DNA of 64,000 bases from an uncultured Lachnospiraceae bacterium (GTDB lineage Bacteria > Bacillota > Clostridia > Lachnospirales > Lachnospiraceae), in the NCBI GenBank assembly GCA_905209075.1, contig CAJLRL010000002.1, forward strand, positions 2,869 through 66,868, given 5' to 3'. Positions 1 through 12,702 of this stretch are shown piece by piece; the stretch's first letter is position 1; each line of letters begins with the position of its first letter. The translations under genes were made by a program, and so were the position numbers. The notes under the pieces were generated by a model that worked only from the letters and a program-made list of their open reading frames with translations, was not told the DNA's origin and did not search any database.

Positions 1-1
1 C

Positions 2-151
2 TTTTCGGGAGAGTGTGAAAAGAGACAGCTGGCCATCGCACTCAGAGAGGAACTTCCGGGATTTATGGTTCCAAGAAAAATCAAAAAACTTGAACAGCTC
101 CCGAAACTCCCTAATGGCAAATATGATATGAAAAAACTGGAGGAAATGTAA
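2..151 (+). CDS. AMP-dependent amino-acid ligase, DltA-like (C-terminal fragment; gene starts upstream of the window)
   Basis: Frame-2 translation ...PRKIKKLEQLPKLPNGKYDMKKLEEM* matches the C-terminal A10 motif region (PxxxNGKxD) of adenylation/AMP-binding enzymes. The stop at 149-151 lies 1 nt before the carrier-protein gene. Confidence 0.6.
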   Translation, partial: FSGECEKRQLAIALREELPGFMVPRKIKKLEQLPKLPNGKYDMKKLEEM

Positions 152-152
152 A

Positions 153-383
153 ATGAGAGACACGATAATGGAAATTTTAGAGGATTTAAGACCTGATGTT
201 GACTTTGAAAAAGAGACAAAGCTTATTGATGACAAAATCTTAGAGTCATTTGATATAGTATCACTTGTATCAGAGCTTTCAGATGAATTTGATATCACAA
301 TAAGACCAAAGGACCTTGTGCCTGAGAACTTCAACTCTGTAGATGCTATAGAGGCTCTTGTAAGTAAGCTTGTGGAGGAATAA
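153..383 (+). CDS. D-alanyl-carrier-protein-like small acyl/peptidyl carrier protein (DltC-like)
   Basis: 76 aa, acidic. Central ESFDIVSLVSEL resembles the DltC/ACP phosphopantetheine-Ser motif (DSxxxxxL). It sits immediately after an adenylating enzyme, as in dlt operons. Confidence 0.65.
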   Translation: MRDTIMEILEDLRPDVDFEKETKLIDDKILESFDIVSLVSELSDEFDITIRPKDLVPENFNSVDAIEALVSKLVEE

Positions 384-388
384 AATAT

Positions 389-1534
389 ATGAACTCAACA
401 CCATATTATGTATTTGATACGGATGAGTTCGCTAAAAGAGCAGCCATGATCAAGGCTGCTCTTGGTAATATTCATCTGTGTTTTTCTATTAAAGCAAATC
501 CGTTTTTACTCCATCGTATACCGGAAGGACTTGACCGTGTTGAAGTATGCAGCCCGGGAGAACTTGAGATATGTATCGCACTTGGCATTGATCCGTCTTC
601 CATCATATATTCAGGAGTTATGAAAGAAGAAACTGACATCACAAGGGCAATCACATATGGTGCAGGGATTCTTACATGTGAGAGTATACGTCATGCCCAG
701 CTTGAGAGCAAGGTGGCTCTTTCCCAGGGGAAAAAGGTAGATGTGATACTCAGGCTCAGCAGTGGAAACCAGTTTGGAATGTCGCTTACGGATATTGAGT
801 ATATAATTTCAAACCCGGACGAATTCAAAGGAATTTCAGTGATAGGGCTTCATTATTATTCCGGAACACAGAAATCGCTTCGAAAGATAAAAAAAGATCT
901 TGATAAAATAGAATCTGCGATCAGCACATTGGATGAAAAATATGGATTTAAGCCGGAGCTTATAGAATACGGCCCGGGACTTTGTGTGTATTACTTTGAG
1001 CCGGACTGGGAGGAAAAGGAGAAGGCTGCACTGGATGAAGCTGCTACAGTTTTAAAGGAGTTTGCAGAAAAATATCCTCTCGGAATAGAGATGGGACGTT
1101 TCCTTGCTGCGTCATGCGGAAAATATTTTACAACAGTTAAAGATATTAAGACACAGGGTGACGCAAATTATGTTATACTTGACGGAGGAATACATCATCT
1201 TAATTATTTCGGACAGAGGATGGCAATGGAAGTTCCACCGATCCGTTATGCAACAGAAGGAAAAAAAGCGCCGGATGAGGAAGTGGACTACACACTTTTT
1301 GGAAGTCTGTGTACAGTCGCAGATGTTTTAGTGCGTGAGGTAAGGCTGCCGCATCTTGATATAGATGATGTGCTTGAATTCGGACATTGTGGTGCATATT
1401 CCATGACGGAGGCGCCGGCTCTTTTCCTGTCGAGATTTTTACCTGCGATCTATGCGTACTCATCCGATAAGGGATATGAATTACTAAGAGACCACATACC
1501 GGCTTCTGATATAAATAAACCAGTTACGGAGTAA
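389..1534 (+). CDS. Fold-type III PLP-dependent decarboxylase (Orn/DAP/Arg decarboxylase family)
   Basis: 381 aa. N-terminal FSIKANPF (PLP-lysine motif, cf. YAVKAN in DapDC/ODC). ILDGGIHH resembles the DxGGG substrate-binding motif. C-terminal CGAYS region typical of DapDC-like enzymes. Confidence 0.6.
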   Translation: MNSTPYYVFDTDEFAKRAAMIKAALGNIHLCFSIKANPFLLHRIPEGLDRVEVCSPGELEICIALGIDPSSIIYSGVMKEETDITRAITYGAGILTCESIRHAQLESKVALSQGKKVDVILRLSSGNQFGMSLTDIEYIISNPDEFKGISVIGLHYYSGTQKSLRKIKKDLDKIESAISTLDEKYGFKPELIEYGPGLCVYYFEPDWEEKEKAALDEAATVLKEFAEKYPLGIEMGRFLAASCGKYFTTVKDIKTQGDANYVILDGGIHHLNYFGQRMAMEVPPIRYATEGKKAPDEEVDYTLFGSLCTVADVLVREVRLPHLDIDDVLEFGHCGAYSMTEAPALFLSRFLPAIYAYSSDKGYELLRDHIPASDINKPVTE

Positions 1535-1537
1535 TTT

Positions 1538-3088
1538 ATGGAACTTATTTCAGCAGCATTTGCTGCATTTACAGTTATTTTTTTAATTGCATATTATGTA
1601 TGTCCAAAACGTTTCCGCTGGATGGTGCTTCTTTTAGCAAGTTATTGCTACTATATCATTATCTGCGGAAAGTATGTGGCATTCATTCTTTTTACGACTG
1701 CATCAACTTACTTTGGTGCAGTTTTTATTGACATACTTTTAGATACACAAAAGAAAACGATAAAGGAAAATGCAAAAAGCTGGAGCAGGGAGCAGAGGAA
1801 AGCATACAAAGAAACCATAAGAAAAAAACGTATAGCAATAATGCTTCTTGTCCTTATATTAAATTTCGGACTGCTTGGATTTTTAAAATATATTCCATAT
1901 GCTTCCAGGCTTGGACTTCTGCTTCCGCTTGGAATTTCGTTTTATACATTCCAGTCTATGGGATATCTTATTGATGTTTATCAGGAAAAGGTAAAGGCAC
2001 AGACTAACTTTTTTAAATTAGCACTTTTTGTATCCTTTTTTCCACAGATAATACAGGGACCTATTGCGGTTTATGATGATCTGGCAGGGCAGCTTTACGA
2101 AGGACATGCATTTGATTATGATAAGCTTAAACGGGGTGCGCTTTTAGTATTATGGGGCGCCTTCAAGAAAATGGTCATAGCTGACCGTGCAGTGGTCGTC
2201 ATGAACTATATCCTTTCGGATGTGCACGGATTTTCGGGAAGCTATGTTTTGTTTGCGGCGGTCGTTTACGCACTTCAGCTTTATACGGATTTTTCCGGCG
2301 GCATAGATATAGTAAGAGGAATAGGAGAAATGTTCGGTATCACTATGGCGGAAAACTTCAGACAGCCATATTTTTCACGTTCTCTTACAGAGTACTGGCA
2401 CCGCTGGCACATAACACTTGGAAACTGGTGCAGGAATTATATCTTTTATCCTTTATCAATCTCAAAAAGATTTCTTGATATGGGTAAGTTTTTGAAAAAG
2501 CACAGTACAAAACATATTGCAAAAGTGCTACCGGGAAGCATAGCTTCAGTTATAACGTTTCTTGTAATCGGAATATGGCATGGGGCAAACATGAAATATG
2601 TGGCATTCGGACTCTGGAACGGAGTAGTCATCATGATCGCAGAACTTATAGCACCGGTTACGAACAGTATAAAAACAAAATTTTGTGGATATAAATTCAA
2701 AATACTGCCGGTACTGTGGACATTTATCCTTGTGCTTGTGGGATATTATTTCGATATTGCGGATGATCTGTCACAGGCTGTATATATGCTTGTAAAATCT
2801 GTTACTGATTTTCATATAAGTGATTTCTCATATGGAAACTTCATGGCAGCCCTTAAGCCGTGTGGCTACAGGACAGCTGATTTTATGCTGCTGGCTTTGC
2901 TTACAGTATTTTTGTTTATGGTTTCTCTGGTAAAGGAAAAGAAAAATCTTATGATAAGGGACTGGCTTATGGCAAGAAAGCTCCCGGTGCAGTGGATCAT
3001 AATAATGGCAGGAATTTTTTCAGTCATAATATTTGGATATTATGGACCAGGAATAAATCCGGCGGATTTTGTATACATGCAATTTTAG
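1538..3088 (+). CDS. MBOAT family membrane O-acyltransferase (DltB/AlgI-like)
   Basis: 516 aa polytopic membrane protein. The FYPLSISKR..., ...WHGAN and conserved His-containing (RWHITL) blocks are typical of DltB/AlgI MBOATs. Confidence 0.7.
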   Translation: MELISAAFAAFTVIFLIAYYVCPKRFRWMVLLLASYCYYIIICGKYVAFILFTTASTYFGAVFIDILLDTQKKTIKENAKSWSREQRKAYKETIRKKRIAIMLLVLILNFGLLGFLKYIPYASRLGLLLPLGISFYTFQSMGYLIDVYQEKVKAQTNFFKLALFVSFFPQIIQGPIAVYDDLAGQLYEGHAFDYDKLKRGALLVLWGAFKKMVIADRAVVVMNYILSDVHGFSGSYVLFAAVVYALQLYTDFSGGIDIVRGIGEMFGITMAENFRQPYFSRSLTEYWHRWHITLGNWCRNYIFYPLSISKRFLDMGKFLKKHSTKHIAKVLPGSIASVITFLVIGIWHGANMKYVAFGLWNGVVIMIAELIAPVTNSIKTKFCGYKFKILPVLWTFILVLVGYYFDIADDLSQAVYMLVKSVTDFHISDFSYGNFMAALKPCGYRTADFMLLALLTVFLFMVSLVKEKKNLMIRDWLMARKLPVQWIIIMAGIFSVIIFGYYGPGINPADFVYMQF

Positions 3089-3107
3089 GAAAATAGTGAG
3101 GACTTAA

Positions 3108-4205
3108 ATGAAAGGCAAAAAAAGAATCTGGTGGAGACCGCTAGTGTTTGCGGTACTTTTTTCAATTGTATTTTGCGTGGTATCACAGATGTTTATTACA
3201 GCTGACCGTTCAGACATTTCCAATATAAGAGGGTTTTATTATGAACCCAAAAATTCACTGGATGTTGTCACGATGGGACCAAGCGAAATGTATACGGGAT
3301 ATGCGCCGACACTTGCATGGCATGAATTTGGCTATACATCATATAATTTTGGAGCGGGAGCGATACCCTGTAACCTATACAAGTCAATGCTAAAAGAGGT
3401 GCTAAAGCGTCAGAATCCAAAGCTTATCGTAGTAAACATAAGTGATTATTATGATGGCGAGTGGAACTATGATGACGAAGTATATATGCGTAAATGGATA
3501 GATAATATTCCGTGGTCGCAGAACAAAATTGATACGATAAAAGATGTAATAGCAAAAAACGACAGGGTGGGATATTTTTACAGCCTGTGGAAATACCATG
3601 ATAACTGGGCGAATCCGCTTGATGTATTTAATGCTCTTAAAGTTAAAATATACCTTGCAGAAAATGGTGGGACAAACAATAAAGGATTTCTGACAAACAC
3701 TACGATAACAGGAGGCCAGGAAAATCTTGCGGCACTTGGAAAACGCGACTCCTTAAATATGTCTTTTTCAAAAAAGACAGAAGGGTATCTGAGGGATTTT
3801 CTTGATTTCTGCAAAGAAAGCAATATAGAAAATATGCTTTTTATTGCAATGCCTCATCAGATGAAAAGTATCAATGCGGACGTGATAGACCAGATCGGCG
3901 GCATTGTCGGTGAATATGGATATGATTTTATGGATCTGGATAAAAGCTATGCACAGATAGGCATAGATGATGCGACAGATTTTTCAGATGGTGAGCATAT
4001 GAACGTAAACGGAATGGAAAAGTTTACAACATATCTTGGACAGTATATTGTGGATAACTATGATGTTGCCAGATCAGACAGTGGATATACTGATGATATT
4101 AAAGCAGACTGGGATGCATGCTATGAAAAAACTATGGGGATTATAGACAGATGCAAGGAGGATATGAAGAGTGGAATCCATAAAGAGTACTGGGAAGGCG
4201 ATTGA
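3108..4205 (+). CDS. DltD-like / SGNH-type membrane-anchored transfer protein
   Basis: 365 aa. N-terminal TM helix, then an extracytoplasmic domain with a GPSE(M) motif resembling the DltD GSSE catalytic serine block. Positioned after the MBOAT gene as in dltABCD. Confidence 0.45.
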   Translation: MKGKKRIWWRPLVFAVLFSIVFCVVSQMFITADRSDISNIRGFYYEPKNSLDVVTMGPSEMYTGYAPTLAWHEFGYTSYNFGAGAIPCNLYKSMLKEVLKRQNPKLIVVNISDYYDGEWNYDDEVYMRKWIDNIPWSQNKIDTIKDVIAKNDRVGYFYSLWKYHDNWANPLDVFNALKVKIYLAENGGTNNKGFLTNTTITGGQENLAALGKRDSLNMSFSKKTEGYLRDFLDFCKESNIENMLFIAMPHQMKSINADVIDQIGGIVGEYGYDFMDLDKSYAQIGIDDATDFSDGEHMNVNGMEKFTTYLGQYIVDNYDVARSDSGYTDDIKADWDACYEKTMGIIDRCKEDMKSGIHKEYWEGD

Positions 4206-5139
4206 TATATCGGTCGTTGTGCCATGCTATAATGAGCAGGGAGCTTTGCCGTTTTATTATGATAAAATGAAAGAGGTTATGGCTTTGCTGCCGGAGCTTT
4301 CGTTTGAGATAATAATTGTGGATGATGGTTCGACAGATGGAACATTGGAGACCGTAAAGCAGCTTGCAAAGAGTGATGACCGCATCAGGTATATATCATT
4401 TTCCAGAAACTTCGGAAAAGAGGCGGCCATGTATGCCGGACTTAAGAATGCATCAGGAAAGTATACTGCCATAATGGATGCTGATCTTCAGGATCCGCCG
4501 GAAATGCTTCCCAAAATGTACCGGGTCATAACAGAAGAAGGATATGACGCAGTCGGAACCAGACGTGTTACAAGAAAAGGTGAACCGCCGGTCAGATCTT
4601 TTTTTGCAAGAAAATTTTATAAGATAATGAGCCGTATTTCAAAAGCAAATATGGTAGATGGGGCAAGGGATTACAGACTTATGAACCGCAAATATGTGGA
4701 CGCTCTTCTAAGCCTGGGTGAATATAACCGGTTTTCAAAAGGACTTTTTGGATGGGTAGGATTCAAAGTAAAGTGGCTTGAATTTGAGAATGTAAACCGG
4801 ATCGCAGGAGAGACAAAATGGTCATTTGGACAATTATTTTTGTACAGTCTTGATGGGATAGTCGCATTTTCCAATGTACCGCTTTATATGGCGTCAATTG
4901 CAGGAATAGGAAGCTTTATAGCGGCAATAGCAGCGATGATATTTATAATCGTGCGTAGGCTTGTTTTTGGAGATCCGGTCGCAGGTTGGGCTTCGACTGT
5001 TGTGATAATACTGTTTATCGGTGGTATACAGCTTCTTAGTATAGGAATCCTTGGACTGTATCTGTCAAAGCTTTATCTTGAAGCAAAAAACCGCCCTATA
5101 TATTTATTAGATGAAACAAATATAAAAGATGCCAGGTAG
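4171..5139 (+). CDS. GT2 polyprenyl-phosphate glycosyltransferase (GtrB/CsbB-like)
   Basis: ISVVVPCYNE...IIVDDGSTDGT...DADLQDPP motifs (GT-A DxD). Two C-terminal TM helices as in GtrB/DPM1-like bactoprenol glucosyltransferases. Overlaps the upstream gene by 35 nt. Confidence 0.75.
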   Translation: MESIKSTGKAIDISVVVPCYNEQGALPFYYDKMKEVMALLPELSFEIIIVDDGSTDGTLETVKQLAKSDDRIRYISFSRNFGKEAAMYAGLKNASGKYTAIMDADLQDPPEMLPKMYRVITEEGYDAVGTRRVTRKGEPPVRSFFARKFYKIMSRISKANMVDGARDYRLMNRKYVDALLSLGEYNRFSKGLFGWVGFKVKWLEFENVNRIAGETKWSFGQLFLYSLDGIVAFSNVPLYMASIAGIGSFIAAIAAMIFIIVRRLVFGDPVAGWASTVVIILFIGGIQLLSIGILGLYLSKLYLEAKNRPIYLLDETNIKDAR

Positions 5140-7839: not shown

Positions 7840-9843
7840 ATGCGGGGTATTTATATGAGAGATGCTAAAAATAATGACTTAAAAAATATAAATAATAGAT
7901 CAAAAAATAATAATTCAAAAAACAAAAAAACAGGTAACGATTTCGATGAGAGAAAGGCTGGACCTGAGCAGCCTGACAGTTATATGGGAAATGACAGACA
8001 GTGGATCCTTAGGGCACTTGTACTTGCGTTTGTCGACATATGTTCCATAGCTATATCGTTTTTCTTTGCCCTGATGATAAGATTTGAGTTTGTATACAGC
8101 CACATTCCCGAATTATATCTGGATGGATATCTGAAGATAGTACCTATATATATAGTGATATCACTCGTTGTGTTTTATTTTTGCAGGCTGTACCACAGCA
8201 TATGGCGTTTTGCAAGCATAAATGAGCTGATCCATATTGTGATAGCTTATATGATAATGATAATCGTTGCGGTGATTATCCACTGTGCATATCCTATCAC
8301 TATGCCATATGCATTCTGGCTTATCGGTCTTATGTTAAACTTTGCATGTACTACAGCAGAAAGGTTTGCCTACAGGCTTGTCCGTACAGGACAAAAAATG
8401 CTTGAACAGAAAGGTTCAGCAGATGGCGATGACAGAGTTATGATAATTGGTGCCGGAAATGCAGGAAGAATGCTGATACGTGAGCTTATCATGAGTTCGC
8501 ACCTTCATACGAAGGCATGCTGTATCATAGATGATAATCCGGCAAAGATCGGACGATTTATAGATGGTGTTCCGATTGTCGGAAATAGAAATGATATTCC
8601 TGAAATGGTGGAAAAATACGACATATCAAAGATCATATATGCTGTTCCATCAACAACCGGAAAGGATAGAAAAGAAATACTTAATATATGCAAGGATACA
8701 GACTGTGATGTTTCTGTTGTACCCGGAATCTATCAGATGGTTGACGGAAGGGTATCAGTCTCAAGCCTTAGGCCTGTAAGTATAGAGGATCTTTTAGGAC
8801 GTGATCAGGTAGTTGTAGATAATGATGGAATCCATTCATTTTTGCAGGGTAAGATTGTTATGGTAACTGGTGGAGGCGGTTCTATAGGAAGTGAGCTCTG
8901 CCGCCAGATAGCAAGAGAAAATCCTAAACTGCTTATAATATTTGATATCTATGAGAATAATGCTTATGACATCCAGCAGGAGTTAAAGCGTAAATATCCA
9001 TATGTACATGTGGAAACACTTATAGGTTCGGTCAGAAATACAAACCGTCTGCACTATATTTTCCAGACATATCATCCTGAGATCATATACCATGCAGCTG
9101 CACATAAGCATGTTCCGCTTATGGAGGAAAGTCCTAATGAGGCGATCAAAAACAACGTACTCGGTACTTTAAAGCTATCAAGGATGGCTGCACAGTATAA
9201 TGTTAAAAAATTCGTGCTCATCTCTACAGATAAGGCTGTTAATCCTACAAATATAATGGGAGCATCAAAGAGACTCTGTGAGATGATAATACAGATGATG
9301 AACCGTCAGACCAACACGGATTTTGTAGCGGTAAGATTTGGAAATGTACTTGGAAGCAATGGAAGTGTCATCCCTCTTTTCAAGAAACAGATTGAGGACG
9401 GAGGTCCTGTCACTGTGACGGACAAGCGCATCATAAGGTATTTTATGACTATCCCGGAGGCTGTAGCACTTGTGCTTCAGGCAGGATTATATGCAAAAGG
9501 CGGAGAGATCTTTGTACTTGATATGGGAGAGCCTGTGAAAATTGATGATATGGCGAGAAACCTTATAAGGTTGTCAGGACTTGAACCTGATGTGGACATA
9601 CAGATCGTGTACACAGGACTGCGTCCTGGTGAAAAGCTGTATGAGGAGATGCTCATGAGTGAGGAGGGACTTAAGGAAACTCCAAACAAGCTCATACATG
9701 TCGGAGAGCCGATAGAGATGAATGATGAACTTTTTGAGAAACAGCTTGTCGAACTCGAAAAGGCATGTACGTCAGAGAGTAAAGATATAAAGAAGATCGT
9801 TGCGTCTGTAGTTAAGACATATAAACCTGATCTAGACGATTAA
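7840..9843 (+). CDS. Membrane-anchored NDP-sugar 4,6-dehydratase (CapD/PglF/WbpM family)
   Basis: 667 aa. Four N-terminal TM helices, then two Rossmann domains (GAGNAG... and VTGGGGSIGSEL). YHAAAHKHVP block typical of CapD-like polysaccharide biosynthesis proteins. Confidence 0.8.
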   Translation: MRGIYMRDAKNNDLKNINNRSKNNNSKNKKTGNDFDERKAGPEQPDSYMGNDRQWILRALVLAFVDICSIAISFFFALMIRFEFVYSHIPELYLDGYLKIVPIYIVISLVVFYFCRLYHSIWRFASINELIHIVIAYMIMIIVAVIIHCAYPITMPYAFWLIGLMLNFACTTAERFAYRLVRTGQKMLEQKGSADGDDRVMIIGAGNAGRMLIRELIMSSHLHTKACCIIDDNPAKIGRFIDGVPIVGNRNDIPEMVEKYDISKIIYAVPSTTGKDRKEILNICKDTDCDVSVVPGIYQMVDGRVSVSSLRPVSIEDLLGRDQVVVDNDGIHSFLQGKIVMVTGGGGSIGSELCRQIARENPKLLIIFDIYENNAYDIQQELKRKYPYVHVETLIGSVRNTNRLHYIFQTYHPEIIYHAAAHKHVPLMEESPNEAIKNNVLGTLKLSRMAAQYNVKKFVLISTDKAVNPTNIMGASKRLCEMIIQMMNRQTNTDFVAVRFGNVLGSNGSVIPLFKKQIEDGGPVTVTDKRIIRYFMTIPEAVALVLQAGLYAKGGEIFVLDMGEPVKIDDMARNLIRLSGLEPDVDIQIVYTGLRPGEKLYEEMLMSEEGLKETPNKLIHVGEPIEMNDELFEKQLVELEKACTSESKDIKKIVASVVKTYKPDLDD

Positions 9844-9857
9844 CCGGATTACGGGGA

Positions 9858-11102
9858 ATGGGAGATATTATGGAAAAAAGACAGATAACATTTTCTCCTC
9901 CTGATATAACGGAGGCAGAAATCGAAGCAGTTGCCGATACACTTAGAAGTGGATGGATCACAACAGGTCCTAAATGCAAAGAATTCGAAAAAAAAATTGC
10001 ACAGTTTATAGGAACTGACAAAGCCGTTGTTCTTAATTCTGCAACAGCATGTCTGGAATCGATACTGCGTTTCTTAGGCATCGGAGCCGGGGATGAAGTG
10101 ATAACAAGTGCCTACACATATACAGCATCAGCAAGTCCCGTTGTACATGTCGGAGCATCGCTTAAGCTTGTAGATTGCAAAAAGGATTCCTTTGAAATAG
10201 ATTATGATGCAATAGAAAATGCAATAACAGAAAAGACAAAAGTGATCATTCCTGTAGACATAGCAGGAGTGCCGTGTGACTATGACAGGATTTTTGAAAT
10301 AGTAGAAAAAAAGAAAAATCTTTTCCAGCCATCAAATGACATACAGAAGGCTTTCGGAAGGATAATTGTCGCAGCCGATGGGGCACATGCTTTTGGCGCA
10401 TATATAAACAAAAAGCAGCCTGATGGTACAGTAAATAAAATCATGGTGGGAAATATCGCTGATTTTACAAGCTTTTCATTCCATGCAGTAAAGAATTTAA
10501 CCACAGCAGAGGGTGGCAGTCTTACATGGAGAAATATTCCTGGAATGGACAATGAAGAGATATATAAGCAGTTCATGCTTCTTTCACTTCATGGACAGAC
10601 AAAGGATGCATTCCATAAAAACCAGCTTGGAGCATGGGAATATGACATAGCGGCTCCTTTATATAAGTGCAATATGACAGATATACAGGCCGCAATTGGA
10701 CTTGTGCAGTTTGAGAGATATCCTGCGCTTTTGGACAGAAGAAGACAGATAATAGGTAAATATGATGAGGCTTTTAAGGAGATGGGATATAAAACAGTTC
10801 CACATTTTACAAAAGACCATACATCAAGCGGTCATCTGTATCTGCTCAGGATACCGGGGATCGATACCCAAAGGAGAAATGACATCATAGTAAAAATGGC
10901 AGAACGAGGCATTGCAACAAATGTACATTACAAGCCTCTTCCTATGATGACTGCATACAAAAACCTCGGATTTGATATATCGGATTATCCTAATGCTTAC
11001 CATCAGTACGAAAACGAGATAACGCTTCCGCTCCATACAAAATTATCTGATGAGGATGTTGACTATATCATTTCAGGTATCAAGGAAATTATGGCAGATT
11101 AA
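9858..11102 (+). CDS. DegT/DnrJ/EryC1/StrS family PLP sugar aminotransferase (PglE-like)
   Basis: 414 aa. Fold-type I aminotransferase blocks (SATACLE, FSFHAVKNLT with PLP-Lys, NVHYKPLP). Follows a PglF-like dehydratase. Confidence 0.8.
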   Translation: MGDIMEKRQITFSPPDITEAEIEAVADTLRSGWITTGPKCKEFEKKIAQFIGTDKAVVLNSATACLESILRFLGIGAGDEVITSAYTYTASASPVVHVGASLKLVDCKKDSFEIDYDAIENAITEKTKVIIPVDIAGVPCDYDRIFEIVEKKKNLFQPSNDIQKAFGRIIVAADGAHAFGAYINKKQPDGTVNKIMVGNIADFTSFSFHAVKNLTTAEGGSLTWRNIPGMDNEEIYKQFMLLSLHGQTKDAFHKNQLGAWEYDIAAPLYKCNMTDIQAAIGLVQFERYPALLDRRRQIIGKYDEAFKEMGYKTVPHFTKDHTSSGHLYLLRIPGIDTQRRNDIIVKMAERGIATNVHYKPLPMMTAYKNLGFDISDYPNAYHQYENEITLPLHTKLSDEDVDYIISGIKEIMAD

Positions 11103-11179
11103 GGTTACCGTCTGCGCCTGTATGTGCAGGTAACCGGAGTGATCTGATCACATGAGTACAAATATAACGGAGATATAAT

Positions 11180-11869
11180 ATGAACAGATGGAAGTCATGG
11201 GGAGAACTCCCGGAATTTATGAAAAATGAATACACACTTAGATATTACAGGCGGCTTAGCAGGAAAAGAGGCAGTATGGCACTTAAACGGATATTTGATG
11301 TCATTATGTCGCTTATATTGCTGGTGCCGCTGTCTCCGGTGATACTGGTCCTTGCGATCTGGATAAAAGCAGACAGCAAAGGACCTGTTTTTTTCAGACA
11401 GGAACGTATCACCCAGTATGGCAGAAAATTCAAAATATATAAATTCAGAACAATGGTAGATGATGCTGATAAAAAAGGCTCACTTGTAACAACAGAGGGA
11501 GATGCAAGGATCACAAGAGTTGGAGCCGCCATAAGAAAATACAGATTGGACGAGCTACCGCAGTTATTTAATGTTCTTGCAGGAGATATGACATTTGTAG
11601 GAACAAGGCCGGAGGTCGAAAAATACGTTATGGCATACACCCCTTCAATGATGGCAACACTTCTTATGCCTGCTGGTATTACAAGTGATGCGAGCATAAA
11701 ATATAAGGATGAGGAAAAACTTTTAAAAGCTGCAGATGATGTGGATCATGTATATATCAAAAAGGTTCTTCCCCAAAAGATGAGATATAATCTTTCATAC
11801 CTTAAACATTTTTCGATCATAAGAGATATAAGGATATGTATTGAAACGGTACTTGCGGTACTCAAATAG
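11180..11869 (+). CDS. Small PglC/WbaP-type phosphoglycosyl transferase (bacterial sugar transferase). Start may be the internal Met at 11276.
   Basis: KRIFDVIMSLILL..., single TM, then PVFFRQERITQYGRKFKIYKFRTM...RLDELPQLFNVL motifs, diagnostic of the bacterial sugar transferase family. Confidence 0.8.
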   Translation: MNRWKSWGELPEFMKNEYTLRYYRRLSRKRGSMALKRIFDVIMSLILLVPLSPVILVLAIWIKADSKGPVFFRQERITQYGRKFKIYKFRTMVDDADKKGSLVTTEGDARITRVGAAIRKYRLDELPQLFNVLAGDMTFVGTRPEVEKYVMAYTPSMMATLLMPAGITSDASIKYKDEEKLLKAADDVDHVYIKKVLPQKMRYNLSYLKHFSIIRDIRICIETVLAVLK

Positions 11870-11883
11870 GAGAGGATGGTCAT

Positions 11884-12702
11884 ATGGGATTTTCAGTACT
11901 TATGTCTATATACTATAAAGAAAAACCTGATAATTTTGCGCAGTGCATGGACAGCCTGCTGGCGCAGACTTCTCTTCCTGATGAAATAGTTCTGGTTGAG
12001 GATGGAAGGCTGACAGATGAACTTTATAAGGTTATAGATGAATATACAGGCAGAATGGGCAATATAAATTTCGTAAGACTAAGATTAGACGAAAACAGAG
12101 GATTAGGGATTGCTCTTTCATATGGCATAAAACATTGCCGGAACAGACTTGTAGCAAGGATGGATACAGATGATATAGCTGTAAAGGACAGATTTGCCAT
12201 GCAGCTGAAGGCTTTTTCGAAGAACCCGTCACTTGATATTGTCGGAGGTTATATAGACGAATTTATAGATGAGCCTGACAAACCATATTCGGTGCGTATG
12301 GTGCCAATCAGCCAGAAAGATATTTACAAATATCAAAGAAGGCGGGATGCGTTTAACCATATGACAGTCATGTACAAGAAAAATACTGTCATAGAAGCCG
12401 GAAACTACAAGGACTGTCTTCTGATGGAGGACTCACTTTTGTGGGCGGAAATGATAAAGAACCATGCACATATGGCGAATATCCCCAAAGTGCTTGTACA
12501 TGCCAGATGTGGTGATGACATGATAGACAGAAGAGGTGGAATGGACTATTTCTTTAAATATAAAAACGGAAGGAAACACATCTTAAAGACCGGTACAATA
12601 AGCTATGCAGATTACTGTGTCACAGTGGCGGCACAGTTTGTTGTGTGTATTATGCCTACAGCACTGCGGCGGTTTATTTTTAAAAAAATATTACGCAAGT
12701 AA
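11884..12702 (+). CDS. GT2 family glycosyltransferase
   Basis: VLMSIYYKEKPDNF...ARMDTDD (DxD) GT-A fold signature. Confidence 0.7.
   Translation: MGFSVLMSIYYKEKPDNFAQCMDSLLAQTSLPDEIVLVEDGRLTDELYKVIDEYTGRMGNINFVRLRLDENRGLGIALSYGIKHCRNRLVARMDTDDIAVKDRFAMQLKAFSKNPSLDIVGGYIDEFIDEPDKPYSVRMVPISQKDIYKYQRRRDAFNHMTVMYKKNTVIEAGNYKDCLLMEDSLLWAEMIKNHAHMANIPKVLVHARCGDDMIDRRGGMDYFFKYKNGRKHILKTGTISYADYCVTVAAQFVVCIMPTALRRFIFKKILRK

What the first reader, a model, noticed from the sequence alone, without database searches (positions are those of the whole stretch)
1..4205. Non-canonical Dlt-like carrier-protein pathway that includes a fold-III PLP decarboxylase
The gene order AMP-ligase (DltA-like), 76-aa carrier protein (DltC-like), Orn/DAP-decarboxylase-family PLP enzyme, MBOAT (DltB-like), DltD-like differs from dltABCD by the inserted decarboxylase-type enzyme. 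A dedicated decarboxylase argues that the transferred moiety may not be D-alanine. One inference is that the decarboxylase generates the amino-acid substrate, for example lysine from meso-DAP or a diamine precursor, which is then adenylated, loaded and exported by the MBOAT/DltD pair onto a cell-wall glycopolymer. The adjacent Gtr-type and Pgl-like polysaccharide locus could supply the acceptor polymer.
Basis: inference. Interest (0 to 1): 0.7.

Follow-up and report, generated by a model that had tools for sequence, protein, structure and literature searches.

The report
Dlt-like pathway with on-carrier decarboxylation
A five-gene cassette in the abundant gut bacterium Agathobacter rectalis, shared by hundreds of gut and rumen Clostridia, looks like the D-alanylation (Dlt) machinery but probably loads an acidic amino acid on a carrier protein, decarboxylates it there, and exports the resulting amino-acyl group to a cell-surface polymer, which would be an undescribed envelope modification.

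Summary
On the + strand of 1-4205 lie a ligase 3' end, a 76-aa carrier protein, a fold-III PLP decarboxylase, an MBOAT and a membrane-anchored SGNH (DltD-like) protein. They are packed 1-19 nt apart and run into a GtrB/PgfS-type GT2.

The linkage is conserved. In 47 species-level genomes with enough flank, ligase and carrier are always adjacent to the decarboxylase, and 42 carry all five genes, in at least six gene orders.

It is not dltABCD plus an inserted lysA.
- The ligase lacks the D-Ala pocket: the Asp that binds the alpha-amino group is Ile, and position 239 is Arg.
- The decarboxylase is closest to BtrK, the Glu-S-ACP decarboxylase, and lacks the DAP-decarboxylase motifs.
- The MBOAT carries a fused C-terminal FVYMQF acyl-shuttle motif (PatA type), and there is no DltX.

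Best reading: Glu or Asp is loaded through its side-chain carboxyl, decarboxylated on the carrier to 4-aminobutyryl or beta-alanyl, relayed through Tyr513 and SGNH Ser59, and placed on an envelope polymer.

This is a new variant of a known kind. The acyl group and the acceptor are untested.

The parts
2..151 (+). 3' end (49 codons) of a 514-aa stand-alone NRPS-type adenylation enzyme. It resembles DltA but is not D-Ala specific.
   Evidence: Translation. The full gene is L001:8219-9763. TIGR01733 3e-89; DltA models 270-285 bits, below cut-offs of 476 and 560. Best PDB matches are LgrA and DltA 3fcc at 2e-69. Pocket positions: 235 = I216, 236 = A217, 239 = R220, 301 = S288, 517 = K505. The motif QSPLDYIAA[IV]RDIY is present in 73 of 77 orthologues.
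153..383 (+). Stand-alone 76-aa carrier protein. The phosphopantetheine-attachment Ser32 is at codon 246-248.
   Evidence: PP-binding 0.0022. DltC model 5e-7, below cut-off. PDB aminoacyl carrier protein 4h2s 6e-7, DltC 0.007. Ser32 is conserved in 82 of 82. The gene starts 1 nt after the ligase stop.
389..1534 (+). Fold-III PLP decarboxylase, BtrK-like. Proposed to decarboxylate the carrier-tethered amino acid. PLP-binding Lys35 is at codon 491-493 and Cys308 at 1310-1312.
   Evidence: Pfam PF02784 and PF00278. Best NCBIfam hit is TIGR03099, the exosortase-A-associated decarboxylase, at 1e-44; lysA 5e-40. Both are below cut-off. The best PDB match is BtrK, with the single sequence (1e-25) and with family profiles (241 bits against 193 or less for true DAPDCs). 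K35, H155, E234, R237, D265, C308, T309 and D312 are conserved in 83 of 83, and Y337 in 82 of 83 with one gap.
1538..3088 (+). MBOAT with a DltB-like core plus two extra C-terminal helices that end in the acyl-shuttle motif FVYMQF (3068-3085). Tyr513 is at codon 3074-3076 and the catalytic His348 at 2579-2581.
   Evidence: PF03062. The only NCBIfam hit is DltB at 8e-43. The only PDB hits are DltB 8jem and 6bug at 3e-21, aligned over 125-370 and including WHRWH and GxWHG. Hydrophobic helices at 444-468 and 481-506. H348, H291 and Y513 are conserved in 81 of 81. All 80 full-length neighbouring MBOATs end x-Y-x-x-[FY]. The meaning of the motif comes from PMC12148441.
3108..4205 (+). Extracytoplasmic SGNH acyltransferase anchored by one N-terminal helix (residues 6-33). 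It is DltD-like in architecture. Ser59 is at codon 3282-3284 and His297 at 3996-3998.
4171..5139 (+). GtrB/PgfS/ArnC-type polyprenyl-phosphate glycosyltransferase (GT2). It is translationally coupled to the cassette through a 35-nt overlap. The association is specific to a few lineages and it is not part of the conserved core.
   Evidence: PF00535 2e-38. PgfS model 1e-96 and ArnC-type model 4e-45, both below cut-off. A GT2 homologue is next to LIG-ACP-DEC only in L011-L013 and L071.

Best explanation
The cassette is a self-contained pathway that aminoacylates a cell-envelope polymer. It combines two known kinds of logic.

Step 1, inferred. The stand-alone adenylation enzyme activates an amino-dicarboxylic acid through its side-chain carboxyl and loads it on Ser32-phosphopantetheine of the 76-aa carrier. 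Glu is slightly favoured, Asp is possible, and other substrates such as alpha-aminoadipate are not excluded.

Step 2, inferred from homology and linkage. The BtrK-like fold-III PLP enzyme removes the free alpha-carboxyl while the substrate is still tethered. The product is an omega-aminoacyl thioester, 4-aminobutyryl-S-carrier or beta-alanyl-S-carrier.

Step 3, inferred from conserved residues and published mechanism. The MBOAT uses His348 to move the acyl group across the membrane onto Tyr513 of its own fused C-terminal FVYMQF shuttle motif. No DltX microprotein is needed.

Step 4, inferred. The membrane-anchored SGNH protein takes the acyl group on Ser59 and esterifies an extracytoplasmic polymer. 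In A. rectalis this is probably a wall glycopolymer. The modification adds a primary amine and so positive charge, which makes it functionally analogous to D-alanylation.

What is shown directly: gene content and coordinates, operon-like packing, conserved linkage, conserved catalytic residues, and the family affinities. The identity of the acyl group, the order of steps 1 and 2, and the acceptor are all inferred.
For: Linkage
- 590 candidate stretches in the species-level genome collection encode a relative of the decarboxylase.
- In the best 80 loci the carrier is adjacent in 79 and the ligase in 77.
- Of the 47 loci with at least 6 kb on both sides, ligase 47, carrier 47, MBOAT 45, detected SGNH 42, all five 42. 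At least six gene orders occur.
- In three of the five apparent exceptions (L018 and L053, plus the incomplete locus L033) a divergent SGNH or AlgJ-like ORF sits beside the MBOAT.
- The same block is kept where the SGNH protein is only 34% identical, with unrelated flanks (L007, L008).

Ligase
[quoted passage not shown] It is replaced by aliphatic residues in A domains whose substrates lack an alpha-amino group (PMC11253843).
- Position 239 is Arg in 73 and Lys in 4. Two independent gap-free alignments to LgrA give the same mapping.

Decarboxylase
- BtrK, the L-glutamyl-[BtrI ACP] decarboxylase, is the top solved relative in three searches.
- The family shares the LCT motif with BtrK. It also shares it with a Kitasatospora enzyme beside methylaspartate mutase and a ligase with VinN's features, and with enzymes in ligase-ACP-decarboxylase triads in Paracoccus and Sinorhizobium polysaccharide loci.
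- The review PMC11350588 describes side-chain loading followed by alpha-decarboxylation on the ACP for BtrJ/I/K, CtaD/E/F and FlvN/L/O.
- The ligase and the decarboxylase both hit the paired exosortase-A-associated models, TIGR03098 and TIGR03099.

MBOAT and SGNH
- His348 and Tyr513 are invariant, and FxYxxF lies at the extreme C-terminus after two extra helices.
- PMC12148441 shows this Tyr is the acyl shuttle in PatA and sits on DltX in Dlt.
- L001 has no DltX-like small ORF.
- The SGNH fold has an invariant Ser and His.

Operon
- Gaps are 1-19 nt. A terminator-like hairpin lies upstream of the ligase and another follows the GT2.
Against: - There is no biochemical evidence, and no paper describing this cassette was found.
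- The ligase pocket does not resemble the structurally characterised side-chain-activating enzyme VinN. It has no K330/R331 and no shortened beta13-beta14 loop. Side-chain activation therefore rests on the loss of Asp235, the presence of Arg239, and the logic of the decarboxylase.
- BtrK outscores true DAP decarboxylases only moderately (241 against 193-205 bits).
- A 4-aminobutyryl thioester or aryl ester can cyclise to pyrrolidone, and the butirosin pathway uses a protecting group (my knowledge). The cassette encodes no protecting enzymes, which favours beta-alanyl and leaves the acyl group ambiguous.
- The closest relatives, L011-L013, have GT2-ligase-carrier-decarboxylase with no MBOAT within 8 kb. 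The module can therefore feed another acceptor route.
- The acceptor is unknown.
Confidence: 0.6

Rival explanations
1. Decarboxylase first. The PLP enzyme decarboxylates a free amino acid, for example meso-DAP to Lys, Orn to putrescine, Glu to GABA or Asp to beta-Ala. The ligase then adenylates that product and loads it on the carrier for export.
For: - The enzyme belongs to the Orn/DAP/Arg decarboxylase family, and the lysA model scores 5e-40.
- Public records call it diaminopimelate decarboxylase.
- Loss of Asp235 in the ligase would also fit a free omega-amino acid such as GABA, which has no alpha-amino group.
Against: - The lysA score of 137 is far below the cut-off of 298.
- The DAPDC CES and RPxxY motifs seen in 1twi are absent.
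- Lys or any other alpha-amino acid should need Asp235, which is Ile here.
- A conserved Arg or Lys at pocket position 239 fits a distal carboxylate, not a distal ammonium.
- The nearest characterised relatives act on tethered substrates (PMC11350588).
- The carrier and decarboxylase genes stay adjacent in every gene order.
- Known free-Glu and free-Asp decarboxylases belong to other folds (my knowledge).
Confidence: 0.14
2. The three cytoplasmic genes and the MBOAT-SGNH pair are separate functions. Ligase, carrier and decarboxylase make a small molecule or a cytoplasmic sugar or lipid modification. The MBOAT-SGNH pair is an ordinary acetyl-CoA-dependent O-acetyltransferase of the PatA/PatB or AlgI/AlgJ type.
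For: - The MBOAT has the fused FxYxxF architecture that the literature associates with acyl-CoA-using MBOATs.
- L011-L013, Paracoccus and Sinorhizobium have the triad without an MBOAT.
- Several loci carry a second MBOAT-SGNH pair.
Against: - 45 of 47 complete loci keep an MBOAT within 8 kb of the triad despite at least six rearrangements, while the flanks are otherwise unconserved.
- The genes are 3-19 nt apart in the window.
- The MBOAT core matches only DltB among NCBIfam models and PDB chains.
Confidence: 0.1
3. A true D-alanylation system with its own racemase. The PLP enzyme, named 'alanine racemase' by NCBI annotation, makes D-Ala for a DltA-like ligase.
For: - Pfam Ala_racemase_N matches weakly at 3.8e-7.
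- Public names include 'alanine racemase' for the PLP enzyme and 'D-alanine--poly(phosphoribitol) ligase subunit 2' for the carrier.
- DltA is among the ligase's good PDB matches.
Against: - Both decarboxylase domains score better than the racemase N-domain, and there is no racemase C-domain hit.
- No alanine racemase appears at E <= 1e-10 in the profile search of the PDB.
- The decarboxylase-family residues are invariant.
- The D-Ala-binding residues of DltA are not conserved in the ligase.
Confidence: 0.03

Closest known systems
Teichoic-acid D-alanylation pathway DltX-A-B-C-D
   Same: Both have a stand-alone adenylation enzyme, a small carrier protein, an MBOAT whose core matches only DltB, and an N-terminally anchored SGNH protein structurally similar to DltD. 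Both have the same overall logic: a cytoplasmic aminoacyl thioester is relayed across the membrane to a polymer.
   Different: The ligase lacks the D-Ala pocket (D197, L198 and C269 correspond to I, A and S). All four equivalog models score below cut-off or miss entirely. There is no DltX; the FxYxxF shuttle motif is fused to the MBOAT on two extra helices. An additional PLP decarboxylase is an obligate member.
Carrier-tethered decarboxylation modules of natural-product pathways: BtrI/BtrJ/BtrK (butirosin, Glu to GABA), VinN/VinL/VinO, FlvN/FlvL/FlvO and CtaD/CtaE/CtaF (Asp or 3-methyl-Asp to a beta-amino acid)
   Same: Both have the triad of activating enzyme, stand-alone ACP and fold-III PLP decarboxylase. 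BtrK is the closest solved structure. The LCT motif is shared. The order expected is load through the side chain, then decarboxylate.
   Different: The output goes to an MBOAT-SGNH export system, not to a PKS, NRPS or aminoglycoside acyltransferase. The ligase is an ANL enzyme unlike BtrJ (an ATP-grasp enzyme, my knowledge), and its pocket differs from VinN. No protecting-group enzymes are encoded.
Acyl-CoA-dependent MBOAT-SGNH pairs (PatA/PatB peptidoglycan O-acetylation; AlgI/AlgJ/AlgX type)
   Same: The MBOAT has an invariant His and a C-terminal FxYxxF acyl-shuttle motif on two additional helices. The partner is an extracytoplasmic SGNH protein with a catalytic Ser.
   Different: Those systems are described as lacking a carrier protein and using acyl-CoA (PMC12148441). 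Here a ligase, a carrier and a decarboxylase are tightly linked, and the MBOAT core is DltB-like.
Exosortase-A-associated ligase and decarboxylase pair (NCBIfam TIGR03098 and TIGR03099) in proteobacterial exopolysaccharide loci
   Same: The ligase and decarboxylase are homologous as a pair, a carrier ORF is present, and the pair sits inside polysaccharide loci (Sinorhizobium pSymB; the same triad occurs in Paracoccus pFER4).
   Different: Identity is only 28-30%. The scores are below the family cut-offs. The proteobacterial ligases have VinN-like pocket features. No MBOAT-SGNH pair is nearby. The function of those pairs is also uncharacterised.

Membership tests
Dlt pathway (dltXABCD) | DltA: a D-alanine-specific carrier-protein ligase that reaches the equivalog score and has D197, L198 and C269 lining the D-Ala pocket | tested here: not met
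   TIGR01734 scores 270 bits against a cut-off of 560; NF003417 scores 285 against 476. The corresponding residues are I216, A217 and S288, with Ile in 73 of 77 orthologues (residue roles from PMC11253843).
Dlt pathway (dltXABCD) | DltC: a small carrier protein with a phosphopantetheinylated Ser | tested here: inconclusive
   A carrier protein with invariant Ser32 is present. The DltC equivalog NF003464 scores 29.6 bits against a cut-off of 68, and other ACP models score similarly.
Dlt pathway (dltXABCD) | DltB: an MBOAT with a catalytic His and without the C-terminal shuttle helices | tested here: not met
   His348 is conserved and DltB is the only PDB or NCBIfam match. However, TIGR04091 scores 147 bits against a cut-off of 375, and the protein has two extra helices ending in FVYMQF.
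Dlt pathway (dltXABCD) | DltX: a separate membrane microprotein carrying the FxYxxF Tyr | tested here: not met
   The 21-kb locus L001 has no small ORF ending in the motif. The motif is fused to the MBOAT.
Dlt pathway (dltXABCD) | DltD: an N-terminally anchored SGNH transferase in Pfam DltD | tested here: inconclusive
Dlt pathway (dltXABCD) | The product is D-alanyl ester on lipoteichoic or wall teichoic acid | not testable with these tools
   This needs chemical analysis of envelope polymers.
Carrier-tethered amino-acid decarboxylation module (BtrIJK / VinNLO type) | Genes for an activating enzyme, a stand-alone ACP and a fold-III PLP decarboxylase are adjacent | tested here: met
   Present in the window at 2-1534. 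Found in 47 of 47 complete loci.
Carrier-tethered amino-acid decarboxylation module (BtrIJK / VinNLO type) | The decarboxylase is closer to carrier-substrate enzymes than to LysA or ODC | tested here: met
   BtrK is the top PDB hit with the single sequence and with two profiles. The LCT motif is shared with a VinO-like enzyme.
Carrier-tethered amino-acid decarboxylation module (BtrIJK / VinNLO type) | The activating enzyme uses the side-chain carboxyl of Glu, Asp or 3-methyl-Asp | tested here: inconclusive
   Asp235 is lost and Arg239 is conserved, which is consistent. VinN's K330/R331 and shortened loop are absent. There is no assay.
Carrier-tethered amino-acid decarboxylation module (BtrIJK / VinNLO type) | Decarboxylation happens on the carrier, seen as a -44 Da shift of the acyl-carrier | not testable with these tools
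   This needs in vitro reconstitution and intact-protein mass spectrometry.
MBOAT-SGNH acyl-shuttle systems (PatA/PatB type) | An invariant MBOAT His and a C-terminal FxYxxF motif on two additional TM helices | tested here: met
   H348 and Y513 are conserved in 81 of 81. The motif is at the extreme C-terminus in 80 of 80. Helices lie at 444-468 and 481-506 (definition).
MBOAT-SGNH acyl-shuttle systems (PatA/PatB type) | The donor is acyl-CoA and no dedicated carrier protein is present | tested here: not met
   Ligase and carrier genes are linked in 45 of 47 complete loci that have an MBOAT. The actual donor was not assayed.
Diaminopimelate decarboxylase (LysA) | Reaches the equivalog score and has the CES and RPxxY motifs for the distal stereocentre | tested here: not met
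   TIGR01048 scores 137 bits against a cut-off of 298. The family has GSLCTxxD and NYYGQ where M. jannaschii LysA has GGLCESSD and RPAMY. The roles of these motifs are from my own knowledge.
Alanine racemase | Racemase N- and C-terminal domains | tested here: not met
   Only a weak N-domain hit (30.5 bits), weaker than both decarboxylase domains, and no C-domain hit. No racemase appears at E <= 1e-10 in the PDB profile search.

The most novel reading that the evidence does not exclude
Gut and rumen Clostridia, including the very abundant human commensal A. rectalis, decorate an envelope polymer with ester-linked omega-amino acids (4-aminobutyryl or beta-alanyl). This modification has not been described. 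It would be made by a hybrid pathway that is the first MBOAT-SGNH system to combine a carrier-protein donor with a self-contained (fused) tyrosine shuttle, and the first use of on-carrier PLP decarboxylation outside secondary metabolism.
Probability: 0.45. Interest if true: 0.8.

Novelty: new variant of a known kind. Interest (0 to 1): 0.68.

Why it matters
D-alanylation of teichoic acids is a major determinant of surface charge, resistance to cationic peptides, autolysis and host interaction in Firmicutes. If this cassette installs a different cationic acyl group, it defines a second envelope-charging chemistry in the dominant butyrate-producing gut Clostridia. That would bear on resilience to host defence peptides and on immune recognition.

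Mechanistically, it contradicts the current generalisation that only Dlt uses a carrier protein and that MBOATs with a fused shuttle motif use acyl-CoA. It also moves ACP-tethered decarboxylation from antibiotic biosynthesis into primary envelope biology.

It would correct widespread mis-annotation as well. The decarboxylase is called 'alanine racemase' or 'diaminopimelate decarboxylase', and the SGNH protein is called 'hypothetical'.

Tried and rejected
- A 26-sequence decarboxylase alignment was too diverse for the locus scan. A 10-sequence alignment worked.
- Six literature searches for any description of a Dlt-like, MBOAT or exosortase-associated system with a decarboxylase found nothing relevant. 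The Schultz et al. 2023 DltX paper is not held.
- I recall that the ACV-synthetase aminoadipate code (EPRNIVEFVK) and the McyE iso-Glu code also have Arg at position 239. I could not verify this, so it is offered only as a recollection.
- P0192, a 1046-aa decarboxylase 'fusion', is joined to surface-protein and transglutaminase domains. It looks like a gene-call artefact and gave no functional clue.
- The flanking-gene census was meant to find the acceptor. No family recurs in more than 7 of 80 loci, so a conserved linked acceptor was rejected.
- The plasmid search found only relatives at 27-30% identity. They are useful as outgroups but are not members of the cassette.
- The racemase reading and the lysA reading were considered and rejected on domain, motif and cut-off grounds.
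- The structure tools return no coordinates, so the distance between Tyr513 and His348 could not be measured.

Full report
**What is in the sequence**

Window 1-4205 carries five co-directional genes on the + strand.
- The last 49 codons of an AMP-ligase, at 2-151.
- A 76-aa carrier protein, at 153-383.
- A 381-aa PLP enzyme of the Orn/DAP/Arg-decarboxylase family, at 389-1534.
- A 516-aa MBOAT, at 1538-3088.
- A 365-aa protein with no family match, at 3108-4205.

The gaps between them are 1, 5, 3 and 19 nt, and each start has a GGAG-type ribosome-binding site. The next gene, a GtrB/PgfS-type GT2 at 4171-5139, overlaps the last gene by 35 nt.

The exact decarboxylase protein is indexed in 1803 blocks of the assembly collection, and the longest contigs read are gut metagenomes. 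Those contigs supplied the complete 514-aa ligase, L001:8219-9763. Source names place the locus in Agathobacter rectalis, formerly [Eubacterium] rectale. A terminator-like hairpin lies between the upstream gene and the ligase, and another follows the GT2. The five genes plus the GT2 therefore look like one transcription unit.

**Is the linkage real?**

A scan of one genome per species found 590 candidate stretches encoding relatives of the decarboxylase. This is a lower bound. I analysed the best 80 loci, which are 44-73% identical and come from Lachnospiraceae, Ruminococcus, Acutalibacteraceae, Oscillospiraceae and Bulleidia.
- The carrier is adjacent in 79 of 80 and the ligase in 77 of 80. 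The rest are cut by contig ends.
- Among the 47 loci with at least 6 kb on both sides, ligase and carrier are present in 47, an MBOAT in 45, a detectable homologue of the 365-aa protein in 42, and all five in 42.
- At least six gene orders occur.
- In three of the five apparent exceptions (L018 and L053, plus the incomplete locus L033), a more divergent SGNH or AlgJ-like ORF sits beside the MBOAT.
- The flanking genes are not conserved. No family occurs in more than 7 of 80 loci.

So this is a self-contained cassette. Its catalytic residues are invariant.
- Carrier: Ser32.
- Decarboxylase: Lys35, His155, Glu234, Arg237, Asp265, Cys308, Tyr337.
- MBOAT: His291, His348, Tyr513.
- SGNH: Ser59, His297.

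**The ligase is not a D-alanine DltA**

It is an NRPS-type adenylation domain (TIGR01733, 3e-89). Its DltA scores of 270-285 bits are below the cut-offs of 476 and 560.

Two gap-free alignments to LgrA domains and a 77-sequence alignment map the specificity positions.
- GrsA position 235 is Ile216 (Ile in 73 of 77).
- Position 236 is Ala217.
- Position 239 is Arg220 (Arg in 73, Lys in 4).
- Position 301 is Ser288.
- Position 517 is Lys505.

[quoted passage not shown] It notes that Asp235 is replaced by aliphatic residues when the substrate lacks an alpha-amino group. It also states that DltA binds D-Ala with D197 (equivalent to 235), L198 and C269. None of these three is kept.

A conserved basic residue deep in the pocket points to a substrate with a second, free carboxylate. 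From memory only, Arg at 239 also occurs in the A domains that activate the side-chain carboxyl of aminoadipate (ACVS) and iso-Glu (McyE). I could not verify this.

The pocket differs from VinN, which keeps the Asp, uses K330/R331 and has a shortened loop. I saw those VinN features in a Kitasatospora vicenistatin-like ligase. The Paracoccus and Sinorhizobium ligases share the retained Asp, an Arg at position 331 and the shortened loop. The cassette ligases have none of these features.

**The decarboxylase**

Both decarboxylase domains match. The lysA equivalog scores 137 bits against a cut-off of 298. The best NCBIfam hit is the exosortase-A-associated decarboxylase TIGR03099.

The closest solved structure is BtrK, the L-glutamyl-[BtrI ACP] decarboxylase. 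This holds with the single sequence (1e-25 against 2e-21 for DAPDC) and with family profiles (241 bits against 205 for 6knh and 193 or less for true DAPDCs).

The family has GSLCTxxD and DGGIHxLNYYGQ where M. jannaschii LysA has GGLCESSD and a RPAMY segment. From my own knowledge, those LysA residues bind the distal stereocentre of DAP.

The racemase reading, which is the name NCBI gives the protein, fails. The racemase N-domain hit is weaker than both decarboxylase domains, there is no C-domain hit, and no racemase appears in the profile search.

**Precedent for on-carrier decarboxylation**

PMC11350588 describes Glu or Asp being ligated to an ACP through the side-chain carboxyl and then alpha-decarboxylated by BtrK, CtaF or FlvO to give GABA or beta-Ala.

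Relatives of the window enzyme at 27-30% identity sit beside an AMP-ligase in three other settings.
- A Kitasatospora cluster with methylaspartate mutase, of the vicenistatin type. No carrier ORF is annotated in the stretch fetched.
- A Paracoccus polysaccharide locus, with the order ligase-ACP-decarboxylase.
- The Sinorhizobium pSymB exopolysaccharide locus, with the exosortase-A-type pair plus an unannotated ACP ORF.

The ligase-decarboxylase pairing, with a carrier in two of these three settings, is therefore old and portable. Where it has been characterised, the decarboxylase acts on the tethered substrate.

**The export half is a hybrid**

The MBOAT core matches only DltB. Unlike DltB, however, it has two extra C-terminal hydrophobic helices and ends in FVYMQF. 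All 80 full-length MBOATs next to these triads end x-Y-x-x-[FY].

PMC12148441 defines FxYxxF as the acyl-shuttle motif.
- In Dlt the motif sits on the microprotein DltX, and DltB lacks the two extra helices.
- In PatA-type MBOATs it is fused to the C-terminus, and the Tyr is auto-acylated and hands the acyl group to the SGNH partner.
- The paper states that the other MBOAT-SGNH pathways lack a carrier protein because they use acyl-CoA.

This cassette combines a carrier-protein donor with a fused shuttle, and it has no DltX-like ORF.

**Most likely mechanism**

1. The ligase loads an amino-dicarboxylate on Ser32-phosphopantetheine through its side-chain carboxyl.
2. The decarboxylase removes the alpha-carboxyl on the carrier.
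3. MBOAT His348 moves the omega-aminoacyl group to Tyr513.
4. SGNH Ser59 passes it to an extracytoplasmic polymer.

The acyl group is uncertain.
- For Glu giving 4-aminobutyryl: the residue that binds a beta-amino group in VinN-type enzymes is lost, and the beta-amino-acid loop is absent.
- For Asp giving beta-alanyl: it is chemically stable, and the cassette encodes no protecting-group enzymes.
- My split is roughly 40% Glu, 35% Asp and 25% other.

Four outlier loci (L071, L082, L086, L090) have a different ligase pocket (Asp235 with Lys239) and the order ligase-decarboxylase-carrier. They may use another substrate.

**Acceptor**

In A. rectalis the cassette is embedded in a wall-glycopolymer region.
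- Upstream: an LCP ligase and proteins with wall-binding repeats.
- Downstream: GT2, a flippase, GtrA, a CapD/PglF-like dehydratase, a DegT aminotransferase, an initiating transferase, a second LCP and UDPGP.

This context is specific to the lineage. The closest relatives, L011-L013, have GT2-ligase-carrier-decarboxylase with no MBOAT nearby. The acceptor cannot be named.

**Verdict**

I found no publication describing the cassette. Public annotations are inconsistent. I rate it a new variant of a known kind. It is of real interest to envelope biologists, but it rests entirely on inference from sequence.

Noticed in passing
L024, L025, L028, L029, L031, L039, L057 (for example L024:3433-6058 and 9136-11920): One ligase-carrier-decarboxylase triad is flanked by two different MBOAT-SGNH pairs. 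The second MBOAT ends in PIYANF or PMYADF (PatA-like). One donor module may serve two transferases, or the second pair may be an acetyltransferase.
   Followed up: partly
L071, L082, L086, L090: Four outlier loci have the order ligase-decarboxylase-carrier. Their ligase pocket is canonical at position 235 (FDFDVSVKD or FCFDASAKD: Asp235, Lys239). They may load a different substrate from the main clade.
   Followed up: partly
L011:5102-9227, L012, L013: The closest relatives of the window's genes (68-73% identity for the decarboxylase) have GT2-ligase-carrier-decarboxylase and no MBOAT or SGNH gene within 8 kb. UDP-galactopyranose mutase and rmlABCD follow. The triad seems able to feed another route, and the GtrB-like GT2 is the only gene that stays linked in the Agathobacter clade.
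   Followed up: partly
L009:8001-9053, L010:1521-2573: An orphan homologue of the SGNH protein (P0125, 50% identical) lacks the N-terminal anchor and sits alone after a UDPGP gene near an IS110 transposase. It may be a remnant of a broken cassette.
   Followed up: no
L019, L026, L083, L084 (for example L084:10751-14120): There are two or three tandem paralogues of the SGNH gene after a single MBOAT. This suggests several acceptors or specificities for each donor system.
   Followed up: no
L018:5159-6214, L033:5191-6228, L053:940-2130: The partner of the MBOAT can be a much more divergent SGNH protein (GQSH...DGHMMG) or an AlgJ/AlgX-like protein with a DHHW motif. The simple homology screen missed both.
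   Followed up: partly
L091:8139-8464 (Sinorhizobium meliloti pSymB, CP140959.1): The unannotated gap after the exosortase-A-type decarboxylase encodes an ACP-like ORF (…ELDSFAVVNL…) that appears to be frameshifted. A locus tag is skipped there in the gene table.
   Followed up: partly
L024, L029, L031: Contigs carrying near-identical cassettes are binned as Bacteroides faecis, Eggerthellaceae and Coriobacteriaceae. All other hits are Bacillota (Clostridia, plus one bin labelled Bulleidia). This is probably mis-binning, or possibly horizontal transfer.
   Followed up: no
L007:1951-3219 against L008:1-3268: The same cassette sequence has an integrase upstream in one metagenome and an ABC transporter in another. 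This is consistent with the cassette being mobile.
   Followed up: no
L022:3-1025, L025:336-1049 and about 6 other loci: A histidine kinase and response regulator pair lies next to the cassette in 6-7 of 80 loci. This recalls the two-component control of dlt operons.
   Followed up: no
L001:718-8123 (upstream of the window's start): Directly upstream of the ligase are an LCP-family ligase, a lectin-like protein with choline-binding-type wall repeats, and two large proteins (447 and about 700-765 aa) with no or only repeat-type Pfam hits. The length of the last one varies between metagenomes.
   Followed up: no
window 389-1534 and 3108-4205: Public annotation is inconsistent. The decarboxylase is called 'alanine racemase' or 'diaminopimelate decarboxylase', the carrier is sometimes 'D-alanine--poly(phosphoribitol) ligase subunit 2', and the SGNH protein is 'hypothetical protein'.
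   Followed up: yes
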